DNA of 64,000 bases, from the NCBI GenBank assembly GCA_964188305.1, contig OZ076890.1. One strand, given 5' to 3'. A program made the translations under genes and the position numbers. Numbering within the stretch: position 1 is the stretch's first letter; each line of letters opens with the position of its first letter. Origin of the DNA: Podarcis bocagei (lineage: Eukaryota). The notes below the pieces were generated by a model, which saw only the letters and a list, made by a program, of their open reading frames with translations, did no database searches and was not told where the DNA came from. Of the stretch, positions 6,211 to 54,349 are shown piece by piece.

Positions 6211-6351
6211 TCACAGAGTTGTAGAGTTGGAAGGGACTACAAGGGTCATCTAGTCCAACCACCTGCAATGCAGGAATTTTTCAGCCAACGTGGGGCTCAA
6301 ACCTACAACCCTGAGATTAAGAGTCTCATGCTCTACTGACTGAGCTATCCC
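6211..6351 (-). mobile_element. tRNA-Lys(CTT)-derived SINE with CR1 3' tail (POM/P.s.1-type)
   Basis: The minus strand reads GGGATAGCTCAGTCAGTAGAGCATGAGACTCTTAATCTCAGGGTTGTAGGTTTGAGCCCCACGTTGG (tRNA-Lys-like). The tail that follows is nearly identical to the CR1 3' end at 35760-35830. Confidence 0.85.
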
Positions 6352-15971: not shown

Positions 15972-16603
15972 GGATGATGCATAGGGAGAAGGGAAGTTCC
16001 ATTGTACAGTTAAAACTCTTTGCACTAGTTGGACATCACCAACTGGCACTTTATCTACACCAGAATATCTGGATGATCTTATTTTGAGGGCCACAGATGG
16101 GTAACCTGTGGCCCTCCACATGCTATTAGACTCTATCTTTCATCAGCCATGACCAGCATGGTCAGAGATAATGGGAGTTGTCAGTGGAGGTGGGGCTACT
16201 GGGGCTCTGCTCTCCTGCTGAAAATGCCAAGCAGTTTAAAAAATCTTCCTCCTTCAGATCTCAAAACCACACTCTTTCCCGTCCCCCCTCCCCCCACATT
16301 TTATACTTCCTTGAATTTACAGAGGTATTTCTGTCAATCTACTGTACTCTGGCTAGTCAGATTTCTGCACCGTTCAGCCAATCCTAATCCAAAATGGCAA
16401 AGAAATCCCACCCCTGTGTCTCTTAAACTGAAAAACCATGCAACTGATTGGACTGCCTGAATTTCAGCCCTACAAGGAGGGCTCCCACTCCAGCTGTTGT
16501 CATGAGGGCTATTCAGCACAGCCAGGACAGCAGATATGAAAGGTGTCAGGACCGCTTCAAGAATAACCTCTCATGATAGCCTTGGAGTATATCAGAATCA
16601 TAC

Positions 16604-17126
16604 TGTTACGGCTAAAATCTGGGTGCGGGGTTACTCTGCCACCCAGCTCATCGGACTAAGTCTGTGGGTCCCTGCGGAAGAAAATGAGCTCAGCCGGACA
16701 CAGGAGCAAACTGCAGAAGGTCCAAGTTTATTGCGCAACAGGTTCAAGGCGAGATTGAACCCAGAGAAAGGGGTGACATGAACTTTTGAAATTTCCCTCC
16801 ATATCCCAGAATACAGTGCAAAATACATCCCAGTTACATCATGAATACATTAAGAAGAGGTTGGGTTACACAGATTAACATATGGAGGAGGGAGGGGTGA
16901 ATATGCAGAGAGCTGGAGATATGCGCAGATAAACACATCCTGAGAAGGCAATGGTCCATGTTTGCATAGTCTGTCACCTGGCATCGCCTGGAGGAAGGGT
17001 TTGGCAGAGTGATTTTGACTGGATTACTTGAGAGATTATGGAGGACAGGGGAGGGGTGATGGAGTCCTAGAGAAATTGAGCAAATATATTGTAGTGAAGA
17101 AGACATCCCCCCCCCCTTCCGTAACA
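16604..17126 (-). repeat. 3' LTR (523 bp)
   Basis: Identical to 23122-23644 by eye except T16663 versus C23181. Preceded on the minus strand by GAATGGGGG-AC. AATAAA (minus) at 16727-16732. Confidence 0.95.
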
Positions 17127-17138
17127 GTCCCCCATTCG
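17127..17138 (-). other. Short polypurine tract candidate
   Basis: The minus strand reads GAATGGGGG-AC immediately before the TG of the 3' LTR. Confidence 0.65.
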
Positions 17139-20100
17139 GAGATAGATTTGCATTAAAGTTCTGTAAGAACTTGCAAATCTTTTCTCCGCACCCTAAATCT
17201 CGGTGAATGGGATGTGTGGCTTTATGCAAACCTGAAAGGGACTTGCAAGCCATGCCTCTTACGGTCATTTGCAAGTATAGCAGTGCAGGTAGCTGCATAT
17301 AGGGTATTATATAAAGAACACCTCTTGTATTTTGTTGCTAAATTACTTGTGGCATTCTCAATAGTGTTTTATGCTTTACACCTAGCAGGAAGGTCCACTA
17401 ATGACTGAAAAATGCAGTTGGTGTTTTGTCCTTCGCCATTTTTGTGTATTTCTCAGGTGTCAAGCTAGCTCTTCTGTGGTCTCACACTGACATAGTGCTA
17501 CAGCAACACATCCTGTCTGTTGAATCCTCTCGGGGCTTTCATTTAACCATGTTGCCTGGCATTCACCATAGCTGGCACAGGTTGGACATCTCGTGAGGGA
17601 GAGGTCTTCGCCTTGGCCTTCCTATGGGATTCTATCATAGGCTGTGGTTTTGCACGCATGGGGGTTGCTCACTTGCACTTAAAGGACCAAAAGGCTAATT
17701 GCAGCCTGGATACACTTGCCCAATTCAAACTGAGTCCAATTTGAATTTATCTTGCCCCATGGTTCTCAACTCTTCAAACCAATCTGTTAAAAGAAAACCA
17801 TTCTTAACAAGGGCAGTTGTCCAAATAAGTCAATTTAACTCTATAAGGGATCATTCCTGCTAAACCAAAGCATATGCACCTTCATGTACCTGGTGTTTTA
17901 TGGATCCAGAAGCTTGTCCTTGGCAAAACGAGGTTTAACACATTTTAAAATGGATAGGGAAAGTTGGCGGTGGAACAATTAAATGTGGTTACAAGTTGAT
18001 CTAAACATTGGACTACACAATAGTGTGAGCTACTAGAAAGTATAAAATGCATGAGAATTCTCCATTGGTGAGTAAGCAATAAGACATTAAACATAAAAAC
18101 AATTACACAGAAAAATTGCCCCCCTTTGTGGAAATCACACTGTCAGACACATTTCAACATTCTTACATAATAACACATAATACAAAACAAACTAATTAAA
18201 TATCAGTTACATATCTTGACACAATTGTGATCTTTTATGCATGTATCTTTTGAATCCTGGAGCACAGTCTTAAGGTTCAAAAGTGAGAAAATGTCCTTGC
18301 AATTCAACTCCTCCCCTTAGCCATGAGGGGTTGTTGCTGCTTTTCATCATTGTACATCTGTAGAAGTGATATCCTGTAAGGGGCAGGGTTTTGGGGAGAC
18401 TCAAAAACACAGTTAGACAAGAAAGAGGCAAAAGGCAAAAAGGATGTCCTCCAGTTTCCATGGGAAGCTGCAAATAATAACAAATCTTAGCATATTAAGC
18501 ATTTTATTTATTTCAATATTATTATCACATTTCCACATAATTACTGTTATTATCTGCTAAGTTTGTTTGCTTCCTTCACTTAATTTTTGTTGTTGTTGTT
18601 CTTTTCATATTATCAAATAAAAAATTACTCCACATGTAGAGAAAGAGAACTGTAAAAATACAAGAAAGGTTAAAAAATAAAAGGAAAGCAAAAAATTAGA
18701 TTACCAGTTAGATGAAAACAAACTTGACACAAAAACATCAGATTCAGAAAAGACCTATTATTAAATATATTATCAAAACCACGCAGATTACTACTAGACT
18801 GAAAAAAAATACAAAGGTTAAAAAATACAAAAGAAAGCAAAAAATTAGATTACCAGTTAGATGAAAACAGACTTGACACAAAGACATCAGATTCAGAAAA
18901 TAACTATTATTAAATAGTACAAAGATATTATCAAAACCACACATATTACTACTGGACTGGAAAAAAAATGGGAAAACAATGGGGAAAACTTAAAATTCAC
19001 CATGTGCTATCCAATAAAAGAACTTCATGAGACTGACTTTCAACATGTGATGAACATGTCCCCAAAGTAAAACACAAACACACAAAATGAGCTATGAGGA
19101 ACCAAAAATAAATAAATGCTAAGACACACAATTAATAAGTAACCTGAAGTAATCTGTTTTGGCATTCTAACATCCCAAATGAAAATAAAAGTGTTTCTTG
19201 ATGTGACATCAGCTGTAATGTTAATAGCGGAATACTGGGAAATGAGTTAATACCAATAAAAATGAATGGCAATTTTAAAGTTGTGCAGGTACCTTGCACT
19301 AGCCAAAATGACAGAATTAGTAAGAAATGCTCAGGCCAAAGGTAAACAAGTACCATTCCACAAACAATGTTTGGTTGTGCTTCGATTAACTTCATAGACA
19401 TCATGGAGAAACTGATTAAATAAATGAAAACAGATTATTTGTAACTTTAAAAAAAAAAATGTCAAAGGCACAAAGAGATAGAGGTCACTAATACAGCAGG
19501 GATTCAGACTTGTTTCACAGAACAGAAAGAAAGTTGCTGTTTGGCTTTTAGGGAAGAAAGACAAAAGAGAAACAAATGCAATTACTTTTTATAGAGTATT
19601 TAAATCACTGTTTGCATCCCCTCATTATCATTTGTGCTGTGGGAGAAAAGAAAGGACACTCTGTTAAAAGGGAAAATTATTTCATGTGAGAGGTCTGTCA
19701 GGAAGTGCTGTTCCTAAAATGCATAGGCATATACACACACACACACCAAAAAAAAAACAAAAACAAAAACAAAAACTTATAAAATTTAAATTCCATTGGG
19801 AGGCGAACCTTTTGTTAGCCCCTGGGGCAAGACATTAAGGGTGATTTCCCTCAATGGTTCCAAATTTTACATAAGGAAATTTGTATAGGTTTCAGGCTCT
19901 CCAAACCTTCTCTCTCCCCCCTCCTTTCTCTCTCTCTCTCTTTTGTAAGGTGATCTAGCCTCTGTGCATGTGCAGAGTTCATGCCTCAGCAAACCTTTTA
20001 TACAATTGAAAATGTTGCATCTTTTGGCTCAATTAGAATAAGGAAGGGAAAGGTAAGGAGTAGATTTTAAAATAGGGTTAGATTTTAAAACAAAAAAGAG

Positions 20101-22898
20101 AAACTCAGCAATTCAAGTATTCACCATTCAGCCCAAGCAAACTGAGACTGCTTCCTTTATGTACAGGAAAGGGCTATCATTATTGGTCATTTTATCTGGT
20201 CATTCGCGGAACAATCAACCGCTCTCTTATTTATGAGTAAAATGGCCAGGTAAGGAGTGGTTTTTTAAAATAGGGTTAGACAAAAAAGAGAAACTCAGCA
20301 ATTCAAGTATTCACCATTCAGCCCAAGCTTCCTTTATGTACAGGAAAGGGCTAATATCCCTCTGGCCATTCGCGGAACAATCAACCGCTCTCTTATTTAT
20401 GAGTAAAAATGGCCAGAGCGTTAGAATTCATAGGATTTTTTAACATTCTCAGTCATTTCAGCCTTACCATTTGCAGACAAAAAATTATTATTATTAATAT
20501 TATTATTTTCTGCGCCTTAATTTACAGGAATGGCCAAGGCTAATTGTACTTGATTATTCATTTGTATGTGCTTAAACTTTGAATTGACTTTTAAGTTTGA
20601 TTAAAAAAAAAATAGTAGACAAAATGATAAATACTGTAATCACTCAAATGCTTGATATTACCAGTTGTGCTTCAAAACATCATGGCTTTTACCTCTCACC
20701 TTTTAAAACTAAAAAGCAAAGCTAGGCTGAATTTCAACTCCATTACCACACCAGAATTTAAGAATTACCCTCCAATGCTTGCAGACCCATGTCCTTCCAC
20801 ACAGCCACAAATTGGGAGAGTTGAAAGGGACCCTGGGGTCATCTAGTCCAACCCTCCAAATATAGGGTTCACAGCAAGATTTCGCAGCAAGATTTGTACT
20901 ACCAGAGAGAGACACACATACCCATGCACACAGACACAACTGGGGAAGAGACCACAAGCCATGCGCCTATCATGTACTAAGGAAGAGGAAAATAAAAGTA
21001 CCCAACTAGTTTAAGTGAGAGTTTACTTCCTTAGACTAAAGAGTGAAAGTTCCTAGATAAATTATCTTTAAAGACTGAAGTGAACATTTTTCCTAAGATA
21101 GGGAGAGGATCTCTTATAAAGCATAGTTAAGACAGCCATAGATTTGATTTAAAAGGAATACAAACGTGACAATTTTTCCTGAACTTGCAGAGGAATAGTA
21201 AGCCTAATCTATGCCCTTTGCAGTTTCCTTTAAAGGAAGCTTACTCCGGAGTAAATTTACCTGGCACAGAATAAGGAGAAGGGGGAAAAAAAACCCTGAA
21301 AGAGACAGAGTGAAACAAGGGGGGGCATTTTCTAAGAAAAGAGGCCAGGACGTCTTATAGAGACTGATATCAGGAGCCTTACAATAACTCTTCTGTCCAA
21401 CCAAATCAAAGTTAAAACTGGACTCAAATATTTTCTTAGAATGAACACCATACTTTTATAGGCATACGCTTAATGAAATACATACACTGCATTTTAGCTT
21501 GAGAGAGCAGTTGTGCTCAACTAGGCTTTTGCAGCAGAAACATTAGGTTATCAGCACCTTCCAAAATAAGACTGTAGACTCACAATCTCAAAAGTTGGGG
21601 CAAAGCAAGAGGTGGGGTAAACATTTGCACACTTCATTCTCATCTTCTCTTATTTAGGACTGCTAAGATCCAGCATGGCTTCCTTAGATTTAAATTTTGA
21701 AGCAAGCTTGCAGTTTAAACTATGCACACTTAAGAAAGGCAGTCTGCCAGAGACAGAAGGAACAGACAACACACATAACAGACAACAGGTAAACATACAT
21801 ATTCTCATATATGTATTAACAGACAACACACATAACAGACAACATGTAAACATGTAAACATATATATTCTCATCCTTTAGTTGGTTATTGCAAGGAGTTG
21901 GGCCACTACCTTTGGCTTCATTAAGTGAAATTAGTAGGAAGGTCCCACATGGTTTTATGAGCCTCCTTGCCTCTTCAAACACACCACCAGGTAATCAGAC
22001 TGGTAGGGCTCACAACGCTTGGTTGACTGGGTACCCCTTTATAGATGCATGCGTTGCTGTTGTTGCTCTTTTGCTTTTTCCTTTTTTTGGGGGGGGGGGT
22101 CTGGGATAGAGAAGGGGAAAAAGAGGGGTTGATTAGGATTGGTATGTCTAGGGGTTTGGTATGCTTAGTACAGGGACGTATAGTAAAGAGGAGAAGGGGC
22201 TTCTAGTTGCCTGGCAACTTCCTTAGTGGGTTTTAGAGAGCTCTAGCTATCCGGTTCCTTGCGTTCCCTTTCCTATTTCCTATTTCCTTATTTCCTTATT
22301 TCCTATAACCTGGGGTCTCTTTCCACTCTGCCGGTCCTGCCCAATTCCTCATGGGCTATCCCTCCTGGCAACCTCCTACCTATCGTCACATCTCAGGAAA
22401 AGGGGCCCTACTGGACGCCCGCGCCATGCGGTGCCAGATCGGGTGGTCCCTGGATAGAATTTCGAACTGAAAATCCCCCTTGCTTTTGGAAGCGGGCTCA
22501 CGCACGGTTACGTGGCACCGACCAGTGCGGCTGGGATTGGGATAGAAAGCAAGACCCCTTCCTGCCCCCTCCGTAAGGGCGCTCGGGAAGTTCGGAAAGA
22601 GAGCTCCAACCCCTTGCTTTCAACTGGGATGCCCGTTGCGGAAAGTCGGCTGTCTTTCCAAGCCGGGTCTCACCGTCTTACTTTCGGACTCCCAATTGGT
22701 GCGGCTGGCTGGAGATTTTAAGGAAAAGGGATAGAGCTCAGAACCCCCCTTTCGGGTTGAGCAGCGGTCCACGGTCTCTCTCACTAACCGGACCAAGAGA
22801 AAGGCAAGAAGGAGCGATAGAGAGGAGGGCAGAGAATTCAGTTGCCAGGAGATTCCACCCCCTTCCCACCAGTGCACTGGATTTTCCTTTTTCCTTAT

Positions 22899-22906
22899 AC
22901 TCACGC
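22899..22906 (-). other. Candidate major splice donor in the element leader
   Basis: GC|GTGAGT about 200 nt downstream of the PBS, the usual position of a retroviral major donor. Confidence 0.55.
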
Positions 22907-23101
22907 GTCTTCTATGATGATCCCGGGATCGATGAATAATAAGCCGGCTGGATCCCTCTTTTGCTCCCCGGCTGAACTCCTAGGGCTTTCGATTACCGCC
23001 CGGAAGATGGCTGGGGGTCCAAAAGGATCTTCCCAGGCAAAATGGCCCGGAGCCGGCTGAAGATTTCGGGGCCCCCAGTCAGCAGTTCGGGAGAACCACA
23101 A

Positions 23102-23119
23102 GCCCCACGTTGGGCGCCA
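23102..23119 (-). other. Primer-binding site complementary to the tRNA-Lys(CTT) (Lys1,2) 3' end
   Basis: The minus strand reads TGGCGCCCAACGTGGGGC, the 18-nt Lys1,2 PBS, 2 nt after the LTR's terminal CA. Confidence 0.93.
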
Positions 23120-23121
23120 AC

Positions 23122-23644
23122 TGTTACGGCTAAAATCTGGGTGCGGGGTTACTCTGCCACCCAGCTCATCGGACTAAGTCCGTGGGTCCCTGCGGAAGAA
23201 AATGAGCTCAGCCGGACACAGGAGCAAACTGCAGAAGGTCCAAGTTTATTGCGCAACAGGTTCAAGGCGAGATTGAACCCAGAGAAAGGGGTGACATGAA
23301 CTTTTGAAATTTCCCTCCATATCCCAGAATACAGTGCAAAATACATCCCAGTTACATCATGAATACATTAAGAAGAGGTTGGGTTACACAGATTAACATA
23401 TGGAGGAGGGAGGGGTGAATATGCAGAGAGCTGGAGATATGCGCAGATAAACACATCCTGAGAAGGCAATGGTCCATGTTTGCATAGTCTGTCACCTGGC
23501 ATCGCCTGGAGGAAGGGTTTGGCAGAGTGATTTTGACTGGATTACTTGAGAGATTATGGAGGACAGGGGAGGGGTGATGGAGTCCTAGAGAAATTGAGCA
23601 AATATATTGTAGTGAAGAAGACATCCCCCCCCCCTTCCGTAACA
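23122..23644 (-). repeat. 5' LTR (523 bp)
   Basis: 8-bp terminal inverted repeat TGTTACGG/CCGTAACA. On the minus strand it is followed by GT and then the PBS. AATAAA (minus) at 23245-23250. Confidence 0.95.
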
Positions 23645-24351
23645 ATACATTGGTTGTGAACATGCCCAGAGCTATTTCCCTAAAGGCCAGCTTTTTTCAC
23701 AGGTTTCCTACTTCGAAGAGCTTTTTCTGTTTAGTTTAGTGGTTTTTGTGTGACCTTGAGGGAGAGAGGGAGAGAAGTGTTTTGGATAATGAAACGTTAA
23801 ATTGAGTTTTGGTTGGAGGAAAACTGTCTGCAACGAGAAGCAAGGTTTCCTCACATTTCAAAAGTTTTTGTATGTTTATTTAGGGTTTTTTTTGCAACAG
23901 ATGTGTAAACAATACATGAATTCAAAAGCTTATGTCATGTGGAATGGCTTAATTTCTAAATAAGAGGTATGGAGTCAATCTTGTCTGAGAATTATACTTG
24001 GGCCCTCTTACACAGAAGCTCTTCCACTGTCCATAGATGTGAAGTAAATAATTGGGTTTTTTGTGAGGTGTCAGTGGTACTGACAGTGGTACTCTGCACA
24101 CTTTATGTCCGAGTCCTATTGTGATAAAAGCAGCATGGTTAGATATTGCAGTCCTACTAAGTCAAAATGTTATCACCCCCAACTGGGAGTTGTAGTCCAC
24201 TGTTGTTTGGAGGACCTATCACTGTTTTAATGGCTAAAAACTGGATAATCATATTTGATGTAGTAATGTGGCCTGTGGGCATTAGGAAGTGATTATCCTC
24301 CAGCTCAGAATGGTTTGTGCCTTTTACTTTGTATTGCAGCATGACCTACTT

Positions 24352-24487
24352 CAGCCATAGGCAAACTCGGCCCTCCAGATGTTTTGGGACTACAACTCCC
24401 ATCATCCCTAGCTAACAGGACCAGTGGTCAGGGATGATGGGAGCTGTAGTCCCAAAACATCTGGCGGGCCGAGTTTGCCTATGCCTG
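24352..24487. mobile_element. hAT MITE (palindromic)
   Basis: Long inverted repeats with 8-bp TSD ACCTACTT at 24344-24351 and 24488-24495. Confidence 0.92.
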
Positions 24488-25139
24488 ACCTACTTGCTTG
24501 AGGGCTCTCATCTTGCTTTAGCAGACTACAGTATTTATTTCCCCATCAACACTTGTAATGAACCTTGATTATTACTGTTCTGTATCTGTGTATACCTAGA
24601 TCCTAACTATCATTATCTCCTTTTATATGGCCCAAACTCTCTATAGCACTTAGGTAGTGTAAGGGAAGCTGTTGCAGAGTAGATTCTTCATTTTATTCCA
24701 AGGAAGACAGACATGGCTGTAAGGCTTGCACAGGTTTCTTTTACTTAAAATGATCAGCCATTATAGTAGGATTGCATGATTTCAACTATACATGGCTGGT
24801 TGAAATTGTACAAGTTAAATCCAAGCAAGGTAGAGAGCTTAAAAACTCTTTTTTGCACCAGGTCGACTTGGGGTTACACGGCACATAAAGAGCTTTAAAG
24901 CTCTCTGACTTGCTTGGAGGGAACAGCCTACTCCACATGTCAGTTCTGGGGTGCTTGTATGAGATCTAATGGGGCCATCCAAGCTCCCACGAGATCTCGC
25001 ATGAGCATCCCTAGCCTCCCAGAGCTTGTGCTGAGCAGGTCTTACCCAGCAAGCAAGACAGAGAGCTTTAAAACTCTTTTTGCACCAGGTCTGCTTGGGT
25101 TGCCTGAACAAAAAAGCTTTTAAGCTCTCCGCCTTGCTT

Positions 25140-25801
25140 ACTGAGGACACACACTGGTTCTGGAAGTACAAGGGGTTCTCTCCTACTCCCGTTCACCTGC
25201 TAGCCGCAAGGGCAGCTCCCAAGGTTTTTGTTATTGGTAGGAATGCTGGCAGTAAATCACACAGTGCAAGTTGGTGTTAACTATTAGCAAGAACATGATC
25301 TGCACAGACTTGGAGTGTCAGGTCTAATGAGCACAGTAGCTCATCCCTGGGAGGTGTTGCCTCATGGACCAGTCACTGAGACTGAAAGTCCCCTCACAGC
25401 CGTCAAAGTTCCCTTCTTTCCAAGCAATCGGAAACTCTGTCTGTAAAAAGCCAACCTCTCCTCCTCTCTTTTCATGCCTCTTCTGGTTCTGGGAGACAGG
25501 GGAGGGGAACTTACTGCAGCAGGAGGGGGAGACACCCATGTCTCTTCACCAGCCTGACTCTTCTTTGCCTCTTGGCATCCCTCCTCCCCTGCTTTAGCTT
25601 CAGCCTCTGCCTCTGGACTGCCACAGCCTCTACCTGCTTACTAAACCCTGTTACCTCTTCAGCTTCCAACACCTCCTTCCTCCAATATTCTCCCTCCTCA
25701 TTGTCCTGCCACCACTCCACGGGCTCTGAGCCTGAGCCGCCTTTTCTTGGTGGTTCCCCAGCTGGCTCCTCCCACCATTTCTCTGCAACCAGTCCATGAC
25801 A
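25140..25801 (-). mobile_element. Probable solo LTR (Gypsy-like), left boundary uncertain
   Basis: The minus strand begins TGTCATGGACTGG with a purine-rich body. No TSD could be confirmed. Confidence 0.45.
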
Positions 25802-35758: not shown

Positions 35759-36185
35759 AGAATCATAGAATTGTAGAGTTGGAAGGGACCCCGAGGGTCA
35801 TCTAGTCCAACCTCTTGCAATGCAGGAATCACAGCTAACGCATCTATGACACATGGCCATCCAACCTCTGCTTTTAAAAAAGGAGAGTCCACAACCTCCT
35901 GAGGGAGACTGTTCCACTCCCAAACAGTGCTTACTGTCAGAAAGTTCTTGACGTTTAGTTGGAATCTCCTTTCTTGAAACTTGAATCTATTGGTACAGGT
36001 CCTAGCCCCCATGTGACAGCCCTTTACATATTTGTAGGTGGCTGTCAAATCTCCTCTCAGTCTTCTCTTTTCCAGGCTAATCATACTCAGCTCCTTCAAC
36101 TGTTCATCACAAGGCTTGGTTTCCAGACCCTTGATCATCTTGGTTGCCCTCCTCTGCACATGTTCCAGCTTCTCAATTTCCTCCT
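35759..36185 (-). mobile_element. CR1 LINE 3' end (5'-truncated)
   Basis: ORF 35743-36201 (EKLEHVQRRATKMIKGLE...SLEKRRLRGDL..YKY) is the CR1 ORF2 C-terminus. ATTCTATGATTCT tail. Confidence 0.9.
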
Positions 36186-44418: not shown

Positions 44419-44554
44419 CAGGCATAGGCAAACTCGGCCCTCCAGATGTTCTGGGAGTACAACTCCCACCATCCCTAGCTAACAGGACCAGTGGTCAGGG
44501 ATGATGGGAGTTGTAGTCCCAGAACATCTGGAGGACTGAGTTTGCCTATGCCTG
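44419..44554. mobile_element. hAT MITE (same family as 24352-24487)
   Basis: Near-identical sequence. TSD CTTTATAG/ATTTATAG. Confidence 0.9.
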
Positions 44555-46470
44555 ATTTATAGGACCCATAGGAACATGCCGTTAGCAAAGTCACTTAAAT
44601 TGTTTTGGTGCTGTTTAAGAACGATGTCTAAGACACTGCAGCAGGAGCTAATTTATGGAAGAATGCTAGCAGGAGTCTTGTTCTGTTATTCATTTTAGAA
44701 GATATTCTTGCCAATCCCCGTCTGTACACAGCAGTGGAATTTCTTCAGAATTGTGAAGGAGAATGATGGCCTAAATAAGCATTGGTTGCTGAGCTACTGG
44801 ACTCAACATCAAGAAGGAAGAGCATTTGTTTTGGGTGGTCCAGGTCAGTAAAAAGTTGGAGCAATGAGATGAAATGAAATGAAATGAAATGAAGCAGAGT
44901 AAAATGTAGGCAGAATATCAGAAGTTTCTTAGAATTAGCTCCAGGAAAGAAATGTTTGTTAAAAGTTTTGAAGACTGTCCATTCAATATTGTGACTGATA
45001 TCTCCTTCCTGACTGATGTTAGACTGGCGCCTTTCTTGCTGAACTTCAGGCACATGGCAAAAACTCTTATTCCAGCAGGCATTTTAAGGTACTGTTTGGT
45101 TTGATTATGACTTTTTATTATTTTATTTGCTATAGGGTTTATTTTTATATACATGGCTTAGAAATGTAATTAAGCAATATATAAAGGTCTTAAGCAGGAC
45201 ATTTGATTCTTCTGCTTGCTTTGAGATGGAGGCCCATATAGTGCTTTAGAGATGAACCCAGTGGGTGGTATAGCCAGGAACATATTACTTCATTTCATAC
45301 CCATGTAACAAAACATGTGCCCTTAAAATATAGGTAGACTGTTGAACCAACAACTTTACCTGTTGCTGTCTAAGAGGCAAAAGACATGCAGTTATATCTG
45401 ATGGGCTTGCTCATCCTCTTGTGGTTGTGGTTTTTATATATGGATTTAGAACGAGAGCCCGACTTATCCCAAAAACTCATGAAAGGTTACTGTTAACATG
45501 CCCCTCAAAGCTATGTTTCTGCCTGTCCTAAAGGCTTTATTGTAGCTAACAGCAATGCTGTCTTCTGGGGGTACTCAGGGGTACACAGTACTGGCACTGC
45601 CCCCCCAGGAAGAGCACTGGCTAACAGGATTACTGAAAGGTGCTGTCCATGTCGAGGGGGAATTTTTTTAGCTCTTAATCAAGCAGGCAGGGGCCATGTT
45701 AGATCAACATCTTAGCTAGCCTAGCCATGCAATCCACCTGCTGTCCCTTTTCTTTGGCTATGTCCCACACTGATTTCAAGTTTAACTTCTTCATCCCAGA
45801 AGAGCCAGGACAGTGAGTGTTCCTAATGTAATGGGTGAGAAGGATAATACTACATGGAGGTGCTGGTTGCCACCAGCAATAGTTGACTTAGAGCCCGGTG
45901 CTGTGGGACAAGTAGGGACAAGGAAGAAATTTTATTCAGTTCACATTTAAGGGTGCATCTATAAAATTTACACTTTCCAGAACAATGCACAAACTGAAAA
46001 TTGAAATTCTCACTTCTCAGATTTTTGCAGGGCAGTTTTCTGCTTAAGTAGTTTTACAGAAATGCATATATGAAGGCAAATGCAAAATGCAGAAACTGCT
46101 TTGAGGTGTGCTTTTTCTACAATCAAGACGTATATAAATTTTATGAAACAAATTTTTATGAAACAAATAAACAGATCTGTTAGTGAAAATAACATACCAA
46201 ATGCTTTATATCAGGGAAAACTGCTTTGCAAAAATGTGTTATCTTCGGCAACAGTACATACAAAAATATGTATATCAGGAGAAATTGCTCTAAAACGTTG
46301 GTAAATTTTCACAAGGACTTTTTTAAAAAAAGACTGTAAACTTACATGGGTATGTGGAGAACTTAAAATTGAAAAATGAGAAACCAAGAGAAACCAAAAT
46401 GGACAGATTCAATCAAGAGAGTTGACAGCTAAAAACAGGATGAAGTAAATACTCCCCACATTAAATGTGG

Positions 46471-53790: not shown

Positions 53791-54349
53791 CCGTATTTTT
53801 CGCCCTATAGGACGCACTTTTTCCCCTCCAAAAATGAAAGGTGTGTGCGTCCTATGGGGCGAATGCAGGTTTTTGCTGAAGCCTTGAGAGCGGAGGGGTC
53901 GGTGCGCACCAACCCCTCTCGCTCTCCAGGCTTGAGGATAACAGCCTGCATCTCGAAGCCTGGGGCGCGCTGCACAGCGCACCCCGGGCTTTGGTTCCCC
54001 GACCTGTTTTGGAGGCTGGCAGTGGGGAGAAGCGCGCTTCTCCCTGCCTGAAGCCCAAACCAGGTCGGGGAACAGCGGGATGGTGGCGCTCCGCCTCCCC
54101 GCTGTCCCCCGACCTGGTTTGGGCTTCAGGCAGATATCCGCAAGGCATGGGAGCCCGGTGGGAAGTCGCGCCAGTCTCCCAAGGCTTGCGGAGAGCTGCC
54201 TGTTCTGGGGGCTGGGGTCGGGGGAAGCTCGGGCTTCCTCTGCCCCAGCCCTGCGCCTGGGGGGGAAATAATTTTTTTTTCTTTATTTCCCCCCAAAAAA
54301 ACTAGGTGCGTCCTATGGGCCAGTGCGCCCTACGGGGCGAAAAATACGG
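53791..54349. mobile_element. pogo/Tc2-like MITE with GC-rich interior
   Basis: TA-CCGTATTTTTCGCCC...GGGCGAAAAATACGG-TA with subterminal repeats of GTGCGTCCTATGGG. Confidence 0.88.

What the first reader, a model, noticed from the sequence alone, without database searches (positions are those of the whole stretch)
17131..17820. About 700 nt of back-to-back nested stem-loops just upstream of the PPT
Seen (+ coordinates): CGGAGATAGATTTGCA..AGTTCT-GTA-AGAACT-TGCAAATCTTTTCTCCG (17137-17188) enclosed by CCCATTC/GAATGGG. Also TATGCA.ACCTG.ACTTGCAA / TTGCAAGT.CAGGT.TGCATA (17223-17299), GCTTTACACCT.GAAGG / CCTTC.AGGTGTCAAGC (17373-17465), GCAACA/TGTTGC (17503-17555), CCTATG/CATAGG (17621-17641) and AATTCAAA/TTTGAATT (17722-17747). 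A multibranch TGCCC.TGGTT/AACCA.TGTTAA/TTAACA.GGGCA follows at about 17752-17816. Several + strand mismatches become G-U pairs on the element-sense (minus) strand. Established: simple retroviruses and IAP/MusD elements place RNA-export elements (CTE, RTE, MTE) here, and some retroviruses encode miRNA clusters. Inference: this is a large structured RNA domain used for export or packaging, or a source of small RNAs.
Basis: partly seen in the sequence, partly recalled or inferred. Interest (0 to 1): 0.7.

Follow-up and report, generated by a model that had tools for sequence, protein, structure and literature searches.

The report
One hairpin beside retroelement priming site
A young, protein-free virus-like jumping element has one strong RNA hairpin right next to the site where its second DNA strand is primed, but the rest of the proposed 700-letter folded domain looks like ordinary sequence.

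Summary
The stretch is the 3' end of a young, entirely non-coding LTR retroelement (16604-23644, minus strand; LTRs differ at 1 of 523 nt; tRNA-Lys-type PBS; 4-bp TSD; no Pfam hit in six frames). The quoted inverted repeats exist, and the 690 nt fold better than shuffles (z -3.0 sense, -2.5 antisense). But the signal comes from the 3' ~175 nt, mainly one 21-bp hairpin (17137-17188, z about -7 to -8) whose enclosing helix pairs with the PPT. The other 515 nt are not better than shuffles (z -0.8), apart from a weaker unit at 17715-17820, and the 690-nt tile ranks only 8 of 39 local tiles. Runs from 11 organisms hold the family. In four laid runs 17581-17664 is hypervariable, only part of the copies seem to carry the PPT-proximal module, and no compensatory pair was seen among 17 listed differences. 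The AAGACA motif of one known export element is absent. Best reading: a small, subfamily-specific cis-acting hairpin module, not a 700-nt export domain or miRNA cluster; a neutral origin is nearly as likely.

The parts
16600..16603 (.). 4-bp target-site duplication, copy at the 3' LTR end (GTAT on the element strand)
   Evidence: the same four letters lie at 23645-23648
16604..17126 (-). 3' LTR, 523 nt, TG...CA with 8-bp terminal inverted repeat; AATAAA near 16730
   Evidence: 1 mismatch to the 5' LTR
17128..17137 (-). short polypurine tract (GAATGGGGGA) ending one base before the LTR; its 5' part is predicted to pair in the enclosing helix
17137..17188 (-). hairpin A: 6+9+6 bp, small internal loop, 4-nt bulge, 3-nt loop; the strongest fold in the element
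   Evidence: z -7.4; -8.0, rank 2 of the 25 top hairpins in the window; pair probability 0.96-0.98
17130..17212 (-). three-way junction: hairpin A, a 4-bp side hairpin and a 7-bp helix that pairs with the PPT
   Evidence: z -6.2, 0 of 200 shuffles; enclosing helix 0.83 in local and 0.15 in global folding
17213..17356 (-). weakly folding module with repeated TTGCAA/octamer-like words; 17211-17355 also occurs in another sequence context in run X11
   Evidence: z -1.6 for 17213-17305; table 8 record 9
17357..17580 (-). middle part, shared by more family copies, no folding excess
   Evidence: 6 of 224 positions paired at p>0.9; z +0.25 for 17317-17483
   Evidence: 10 of 14 substitutions and all 5 gap letters of X11 record 10; zero depth and skipping joints in X13; Fisher p 0.0009
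17715..17820 (-). second, weaker structured unit: 11-bp hairpin 17722-17747 and a rod 17759-17801
   Evidence: z -3.1, 1 of 200 shuffles, boundaries chosen after looking; pair probability 0.93-0.98
17146..17153 (+). exact octamer ATTTGCAT in one arm of hairpin A; three 1-mismatch octamers at 17171, 17224, 17267
   Evidence: 4 sites in 180 nt, the maximum in the window (mean 0.33)
17259..17276 (+). 14/18 match to a recalled U6-type PSE; TATATAAA at 17308-17315 is at the wrong distance
   Evidence: 3 such matches in the window
17127..23121 (-). non-coding interior (about 6.0 kb) with a piece of a host repeat at 20806-20875 and internal duplications
23102..23119 (-). primer binding site, tRNA-Lys(CUU) type (tRNA name recalled); the same 18 letters in 6 of 6 fetched retrovirus records
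23122..23644 (-). 5' LTR

Best explanation
The window holds a recently inserted non-autonomous LTR retroelement of retrovirus type that encodes nothing and must be copied by another element's proteins (shown: anatomy and no coding remnant; inferred: helper dependence). Its RNA is made from the minus strand (inferred from stranded reads of relatives). The real structure is small: a ~80-nt three-way junction built on a 21-bp hairpin that touches and partly pairs with the PPT, perhaps with a second unit at 17715-17820; the rest is ordinary spacer (shown by computation only). Most likely the junction is a cis-acting signal on the unspliced genomic RNA, bound by a host or helper protein for export, stability or packaging, in the position but not the form of a CTE. 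It seems to be carried by one subfamily, other subfamilies having a different 3' module (function inferred from position alone).
For: LTRs, TSD, PBS and PPT. No ORF above 120 aa, 0 Pfam hits in 6 of 6 frames, and no tblastn hit better than E 0.019 with ORFs of six retroviruses. Hairpin z -7 to -8, second of 25 top hairpins in 64 kb and the strongest signal in the element scan. The tile is the best of 10 tiles over the element. 17150-17490 differs at only 3 and 2 letters (plus 2 gap letters each) in the main contigs of two organisms (records 1, 8). Reads of RNA run X23 over 17357-17764 are one-sided in the same sense as LTR reads. Retroviruses place export elements at this end (passages of PMC12789967, PMC7551171, PMC11379458).
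Against: Seven hairpins with z below -6 occur among the 25 top candidates in this 64 kb, so strength alone is not rare. Near-identity of 17150-17490 may only reflect a young subfamily: in X1 a contig of similar depth matches the window even inside the hypervariable segment. Depth falls over 17204-17305 (X1 about 580 against 1220 at 17621-17636; X11 about 63 against 200; X23 2-4 against 12-23 reads), so many copies appear to do without this module (depth is not a copy number). No covariation was seen: of 17 listed differences 2 keep a predicted pair, 5 break one, 10 are unpaired or uncertain, and none lies in hairpin A. No Rfam match reached a gathering score. No functional data.
Confidence: 0.4

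Rival explanations
1. Neutral: hairpin A arose as a short inverted duplication (a template switch during reverse transcription next to the PPT) and was carried along by a young burst; the other stems are chance.
For: It folds equally well on both strands (z -7.4 and -7.1) with no G-U pairs. Comparable hairpins occur several times in the window. The module seems absent from a large share of copies. The 690-nt tile ranks 8 of 39 (sense) and 5 of 39 (antisense).
Against: It lies directly against the PPT; with about 7 such hairpins in 64 kb, landing within 100 nt of that site is roughly a 1% event (rough estimate). The arms are interrupted by a bulge and an internal loop rather than being a perfect copy.
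Confidence: 0.3
2. One reading: the whole ~700 nt is one multi-stem export or packaging domain, like the MusD MTE or the MER11 element.
For: The whole stretch has z -3.0. It has structured units at both ends. 17736-17847 differs at only 2 of 112 letters in the main X11 contig. Long multi-stem export elements without CTE motifs exist (PMC11379458 passages).
Against: 17306-17820 has z -0.8. 1 of 14 windows of 120 nt in 17300-17830 reaches z -2, against 9 of 172 in the rest of the interior. Most named helices have low probability. 17581-17664 is hypervariable or replaced. The lower divergence of 17472-17847 against upstream is not significant once a cluster is counted as one event (p 0.30; 0.02 otherwise).
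Confidence: 0.12
3. The hairpin acts on reverse transcription: it is the first structure met after the PPT is copied, and a pause inside its 3' arm, about 18 nt past the PPT/U3 junction, would hold RNase H at that junction and help cut the plus-strand primer from an unusually short PPT.
For: The PPT is only 10 nt with an internal U. The hairpin starts at the PPT's 5' edge and the enclosing helix pairs with it. The ~18-nt spacing of the two RT active sites is recalled, not from a call.
Against: No direct evidence. The one literature search on this returned 1 paper, on HIV-1, seen only as a listing. Copies apparently lacking the module exist.
Confidence: 0.08
4. [quoted passage not shown]
For: Same genomic position and a hairpin form (PMC3911700 passages).
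Against: 21 bp with a 4-nt bulge and a 3-nt loop, closed by a junction, is much shorter than a Drosha substrate (about 35 bp, recalled). No B-box word on the sense strand of 17128-17860. No Rfam miRNA match in the stretch. Only one strong hairpin, not a cluster.
Confidence: 0.05
5. The inverted repeats are a by-product of DNA motifs: a cluster of octamer (POU) sites, possibly with a PSE, acting as an enhancer for the LTR or as an antisense snRNA-type promoter.
For: 4 octamer-like sites in 180 nt, the window's maximum. A 14/18 match to the recalled U6-1 PSE. Octamer plus PSE is the snRNA promoter layout (PMC3499247 passages).
Against: The sites are not independent, since hairpin arms mirror each other. 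Three 14/18 matches occur in the window. Two of the positions named as important in PMC9652321 (-61, -52) are mismatched. The TATA box would sit at about -16 to -9, and a T4 run follows the predicted start. The idea was noticed after the fact.
Confidence: 0.05

Closest known systems
MPMV/SRV constitutive transport element (PMC7551171, PMC12789967; passages)
   Same: Structured non-coding RNA at the 3' end next to the LTR of a retrovirus-type genome without a Rev-like protein
   Different: The CTE is a 150-175 nt stem-loop with two internal loops; here the strong unit is 52-83 nt with one small internal loop and a bulge; no activity shown
MER11 element of SERV-K/MER11 and MusD MTE (PMC11379458; passages)
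   Same: Several hundred non-coding bases ahead of the PPT; signs of module exchange between families
   Different: MER11 is described as strongly folded over its whole length and was shown active; here 515 of 690 nt fold like shuffles and no LTR origin was found
ALV-J E (XSR) element (PMC3911700; passages)
   Same: Hairpin in the 3' noncoding region, present in part of the family
   Different: E (XSR) is 148 nt and yields a Drosha- and Dicer-dependent miRNA; hairpin A is short and no small RNA was examined
Non-autonomous non-coding LTR elements (plant LARDs, mouse ETn/VL30, koala PhER; recalled) and deleted XtERV-S copies (PMC8278194; passages)
   Same: Intact LTRs, PBS and PPT around an interior that does not encode the replication proteins
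   Different: No sequence link shown; the helper family is unknown; XtERV-S copies have a Ser PBS and a 5-bp TSD

Membership tests
Non-autonomous LTR retroelement | Two LTRs with TG...CA ends, TSD, PBS, PPT | tested here: met
Non-autonomous LTR retroelement | No gag/pol/env coding capacity | tested here: met
   longest stop-free frames 119-120 aa; 0 Pfam families in 6 of 6 frames; best tblastn E 0.019 over 24 aa
Non-autonomous LTR retroelement | Multi-copy family mobilised in trans | tested here: inconclusive
   many contigs and 11 organisms hold it; helper not identified
Class I (gamma/epsilon-like) ERV | Reverse-transcriptase phylogeny | not testable with these tools
   no pol remnant
Class I (gamma/epsilon-like) ERV | PBS type and 4-bp TSD | tested here: inconclusive
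   the same PBS stands in a foamy-type record (Spuma protease), a record with RT thumb and IN_DBD_C domains, and one with an MLV-type integrase C-terminus; the fit of a 4-bp TSD to class I or foamy viruses is recalled
MPMV/SRV CTE | 150-175 nt stem-loop with two internal loops | tested here: not met
   definition from PMC7551171
CTE-type NXF1 ligands (MLV gamma-CTE) | AAGACA in the stem-loop | tested here: not met
   0 occurrences on the sense strand of 17128-17860; AGACAGG once at 17518, outside any stable stem
MPMV/SRV CTE | 3' position next to the LTR | tested here: met
MPMV/SRV CTE | NXF1 binding and export activity | not testable with these tools
   needs a bench assay
Long multi-stem export elements (MTE, MER11) | Strong structure along the whole element | tested here: not met
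   z -0.8 for 17306-17820
Long multi-stem export elements (MTE, MER11) | Structure kept among copies (covariation) | tested here: inconclusive
   0 two-sided changes among the 17 listed differences in 17128-17860; only 40 of 165 differences were shown and they are unlinked
Retroviral miRNA (E/XSR, BLV type) | Precursor-sized hairpin or Pol III boxes | tested here: not met
   21-bp stem with 3-nt loop; no B-box word on the sense strand; size rule recalled
Retroviral miRNA (E/XSR, BLV type) | Stacked small-RNA reads | not testable with these tools
   no small-RNA library was among the 24 runs listed, as far as the library column shows
Type 3 Pol III / snRNA promoter | Octamer upstream of a PSE | tested here: inconclusive
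   exact octamer at 17146, 14/18 PSE-like match at 17259, 3 equal matches in the window
Type 3 Pol III / snRNA promoter | TATA box at about -30 and a transcribable body | tested here: not met
   TATATAAA at about -16 to -9; T4 run at about +7; the -30 position is recalled

The most novel reading that the evidence does not exclude
A protein-free retrovirus-like family shared by at least 11 organisms exchanges 3' modules between subfamilies. This subfamily's module is a new compact RNA signal without CTE motifs: a three-way junction that base-pairs the PPT itself and so couples RNA export or packaging to plus-strand priming.
Probability: 0.12. Interest if true: 0.6.

Novelty: new member of a known kind. 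Interest (0 to 1): 0.3.

Why it matters
An element that encodes nothing yet still spreads must keep every cis signal it needs, so its few real structures are good candidates for export, packaging or priming signals in a non-mammalian vertebrate. A hairpin that pairs with the PPT would be a new arrangement if functional. As it stands the finding shrinks from a 700-nt domain to one untested hairpin.

Tried and rejected
Rfam on 16000-24500: no match at gathering score; a NEAT1_2 hit at 17437-17560 (24.9 bits against 60) was treated as chance. Exact-pattern scans for relatives found nothing: viral contigs 0, metagenome contigs 0 and 0. No whole genome is held, so no alignment of copies, covariance model or R-scape test was possible. 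No RNA holder on record was listed; this is not evidence either way. Env-remnant or LTR origin of the stretch: no Pfam, tblastn or self-blast support. Long-range pairing with the rest of the element: one 11-mer only. The 3' end of the class-I-like record L005 could not be fetched for comparison. The GalEa Conserved Hairpin Site lies after the 5' LTR, so it is not an analogue (PMC5445492 passages). Background of 690-nt tiles: only 39 of 91 tiles, those nearest the finding, were run, with 7 shuffles each and a 200-nt span. In one search four helix look-ups caught the wrong copy of a word; they were redone by coordinate. Earlier-finding look-ups by place and sequence gave nothing.

Full report
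Context. The finding lies in a 7041-nt LTR element on the minus strand: 5' LTR 23644-23122 and 3' LTR 17126-16604, 523 nt each with one mismatch, 8-bp terminal inverted repeats and a 4-bp target-site duplication. An 18-nt PBS follows the 5' LTR after two bases. The same 18 letters stand in all 6 retrovirus records fetched with that pattern; three of these were scanned and are a foamy-type virus, one with RT-thumb and IN_DBD_C domains, and one with an MLV-type integrase end. The PBS therefore does not fix the class. The name tRNA-Lys(CUU) is recalled. The PPT is short (17137-17128). The 6-kb interior has no stop-free frame above 120 codons, no Pfam hit in 6 of 6 frames read through stops and no convincing tblastn hit with the six records' ORFs. 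It holds a piece of a repeat also found at 6212 and 35775, and two internal duplications. LTR divergence is 0.19% (95% range 0.005-1.1%), so the insertion is young. The host looks like a lizard from its SINEs; that is recalled and untested.

Observation. The quoted arms are real complements. The 690 nt fold better than dinucleotide shuffles on both strands: z -3.0 sense and -2.5 antisense with 110 shuffles. The excess is local. In the 120-nt scan of the element (236 windows) the strongest run is at 17070-17250. By segment on the sense strand: 17137-17189 z -7.4; 17131-17305 z -5.1; 17213-17305 -1.6; 17317-17483 +0.25; 17500-17712 -0.2; 17718-17820 -2.6; and all of 17306-17820 -0.8. Among 56-nt windows of the whole 64 kb, hairpin A ranks second of the 25 top candidates, with six others below z -6. 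Among 39 of 91 tiles of 690 nt (those nearest; 200-nt span, 7 shuffles each) the finding ranks 8th on the sense and 5th on the antisense strand, but first of the 10 tiles over the element. Seven of 16 named helices have sense-strand probability of 0.67 or more; the B set, the D stem and the 17752-17816 multibranch do not. G-U counts are 24 against 22 on the two strands. In local folding, hairpin A, a small side hairpin and a 7-bp helix form a three-way junction whose closing helix pairs with the PPT (z -6.2).

Relatives. Twenty of 24 listed runs, from 11 coded organisms and 11 studies, hold part of 17128-18300. Four runs were laid on 17000-18500; only 40 of 165 letter differences, 12 of 46 indels and 24 of 646 pieces were shown, and contig depth is not a copy number. 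(a) The main contigs of X1 and X11 over 17150-17490 differ from the window at 3 and 2 letters plus 2 gap letters each. This may be selection or merely a young subfamily, because X1 also has a contig of similar depth that is window-like in the most variable segment. (b) 17581-17664 is hypervariable: 10 of 14 substitutions and all 5 gap letters of one X11 contig fall there (p 0.0009), and X13 has no depth at 17612-17662 and joints that skip it. (c) Depth over 17204-17305 is about a half (X1) or a third (X11) of that at 17621-17636, and 2-4 against 12-23 reads in RNA run X23. Many copies therefore seem to carry a different PPT-proximal module. One low-depth X11 contig holds 17211-17355 with unrelated flanks. 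(d) Of the 17 listed differences in 17128-17860, 2 keep a predicted pair, 5 break one, 10 are unpaired or uncertain, none is two-sided, and none is in hairpin A. Loose ends near 17756 and 17807-17817 hint at changes on both arms of the helix at 17753/17815, but they are unlinked and I do not count them. (e) X23 reads over 17357-17764 have the first mate on the plus strand only, as do reads on the LTR, which fits element-sense transcription in a usual stranded library. 291 of 424 reads are 90-95% alike, so they come from relatives, not this copy.

Mechanism. Best reading (0.4): a compact, subfamily-specific cis signal on the unspliced RNA, for export, stability or packaging. Shown: anatomy, lack of coding, predicted fold, position. 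Inferred: any function. Rivals: a neutral inverted duplication (0.3), the full 700-nt domain (0.12), an RT pause that aids primer cutting at a short PPT (0.08), a miRNA precursor (0.05), and an octamer cluster or snRNA-type promoter (0.05). For the last, four octamer-like sites in 180 nt are the window's maximum and a 14/18 PSE-like match exists, but three such matches occur in the window, two contact positions are mismatched and the TATA spacing is wrong.

Comparison. It works, if at all, like a 3' retroviral cis element, but it is not a CTE by the tested features: no 150-175 nt two-loop rod and no AAGACA. It lacks the whole-length folding described for MER11. It shares only position with ALV-J E (XSR). 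No Rfam family reached its cut-off.

Literature seen: passages only of PMC11379458, PMC12789967, PMC11905727, PMC3911700, PMC7551171, PMC4338338, PMC8278194, PMC5445492, PMC9652321 and PMC3499247. One supplementary file of PMC9652321 was searched without a hit; the PSE letters are in figures that are not held, so the full motif is recalled. All other papers were seen as search listings only. Searches listed no paper whose title or abstract start describes this family, and search 57 none on such a hairpin. The library is open-access only and Dfam/Repbase were not searchable, so the family may well be catalogued.

Verdict. Observation partly confirmed, interpretation partly supported; a new member of a known kind; interest 0.3.

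Noticed in passing
window 20345-20430 and 20180-20260 (minus): A duplicated module in the element's interior folds in both copies into the same three-way junction (z -3.5 and -1.8); a second candidate cis signal, reminiscent of retroviral direct repeats.
   Followed up: partly
window 17027-17085: A ~58-nt U3 stretch is shared with other LTR-like sequences that are far more abundant in RNA run X23 (about 200 reads with loose ends on both sides); a lead to related or helper families.
   Followed up: no
window 20806-20875: A piece of a host repeat (82% to copies at 6212-6260 and 35775-35835) lies inside the element, suggesting captured host sequence in the interior.
   Followed up: partly
window 18654-18967: A ~155-nt internal direct duplication at 87% identity in a very AT-rich part of the interior.
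   Followed up: no
window 24351-24488, 44419-44555 and others: A multi-copy hairpin repeat (MITE-like) gives sub-threshold Rfam miRNA matches (mir-5408, mir-584) and very strong folding.
   Followed up: no
window 24721-25410: The most stable 690-nt tile of the 39 tested (72 kcal/mol below shuffles on the minus strand); cause not examined.
   Followed up: no
window 53877-54252: Several very strong GC-rich hairpins (z -8.6, -7.2, -4.5) in a region with overlapping open frames.
   Followed up: no
window 16061-16116: A 13-bp perfect hairpin (z -6.8) about 500 nt outside the 3' LTR.
   Followed up: no
window 22300-23121: The GC-rich 5' leader, where a packaging signal would be expected, shows no 120-nt window below z -1.6 on the sense strand.
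   Followed up: partly
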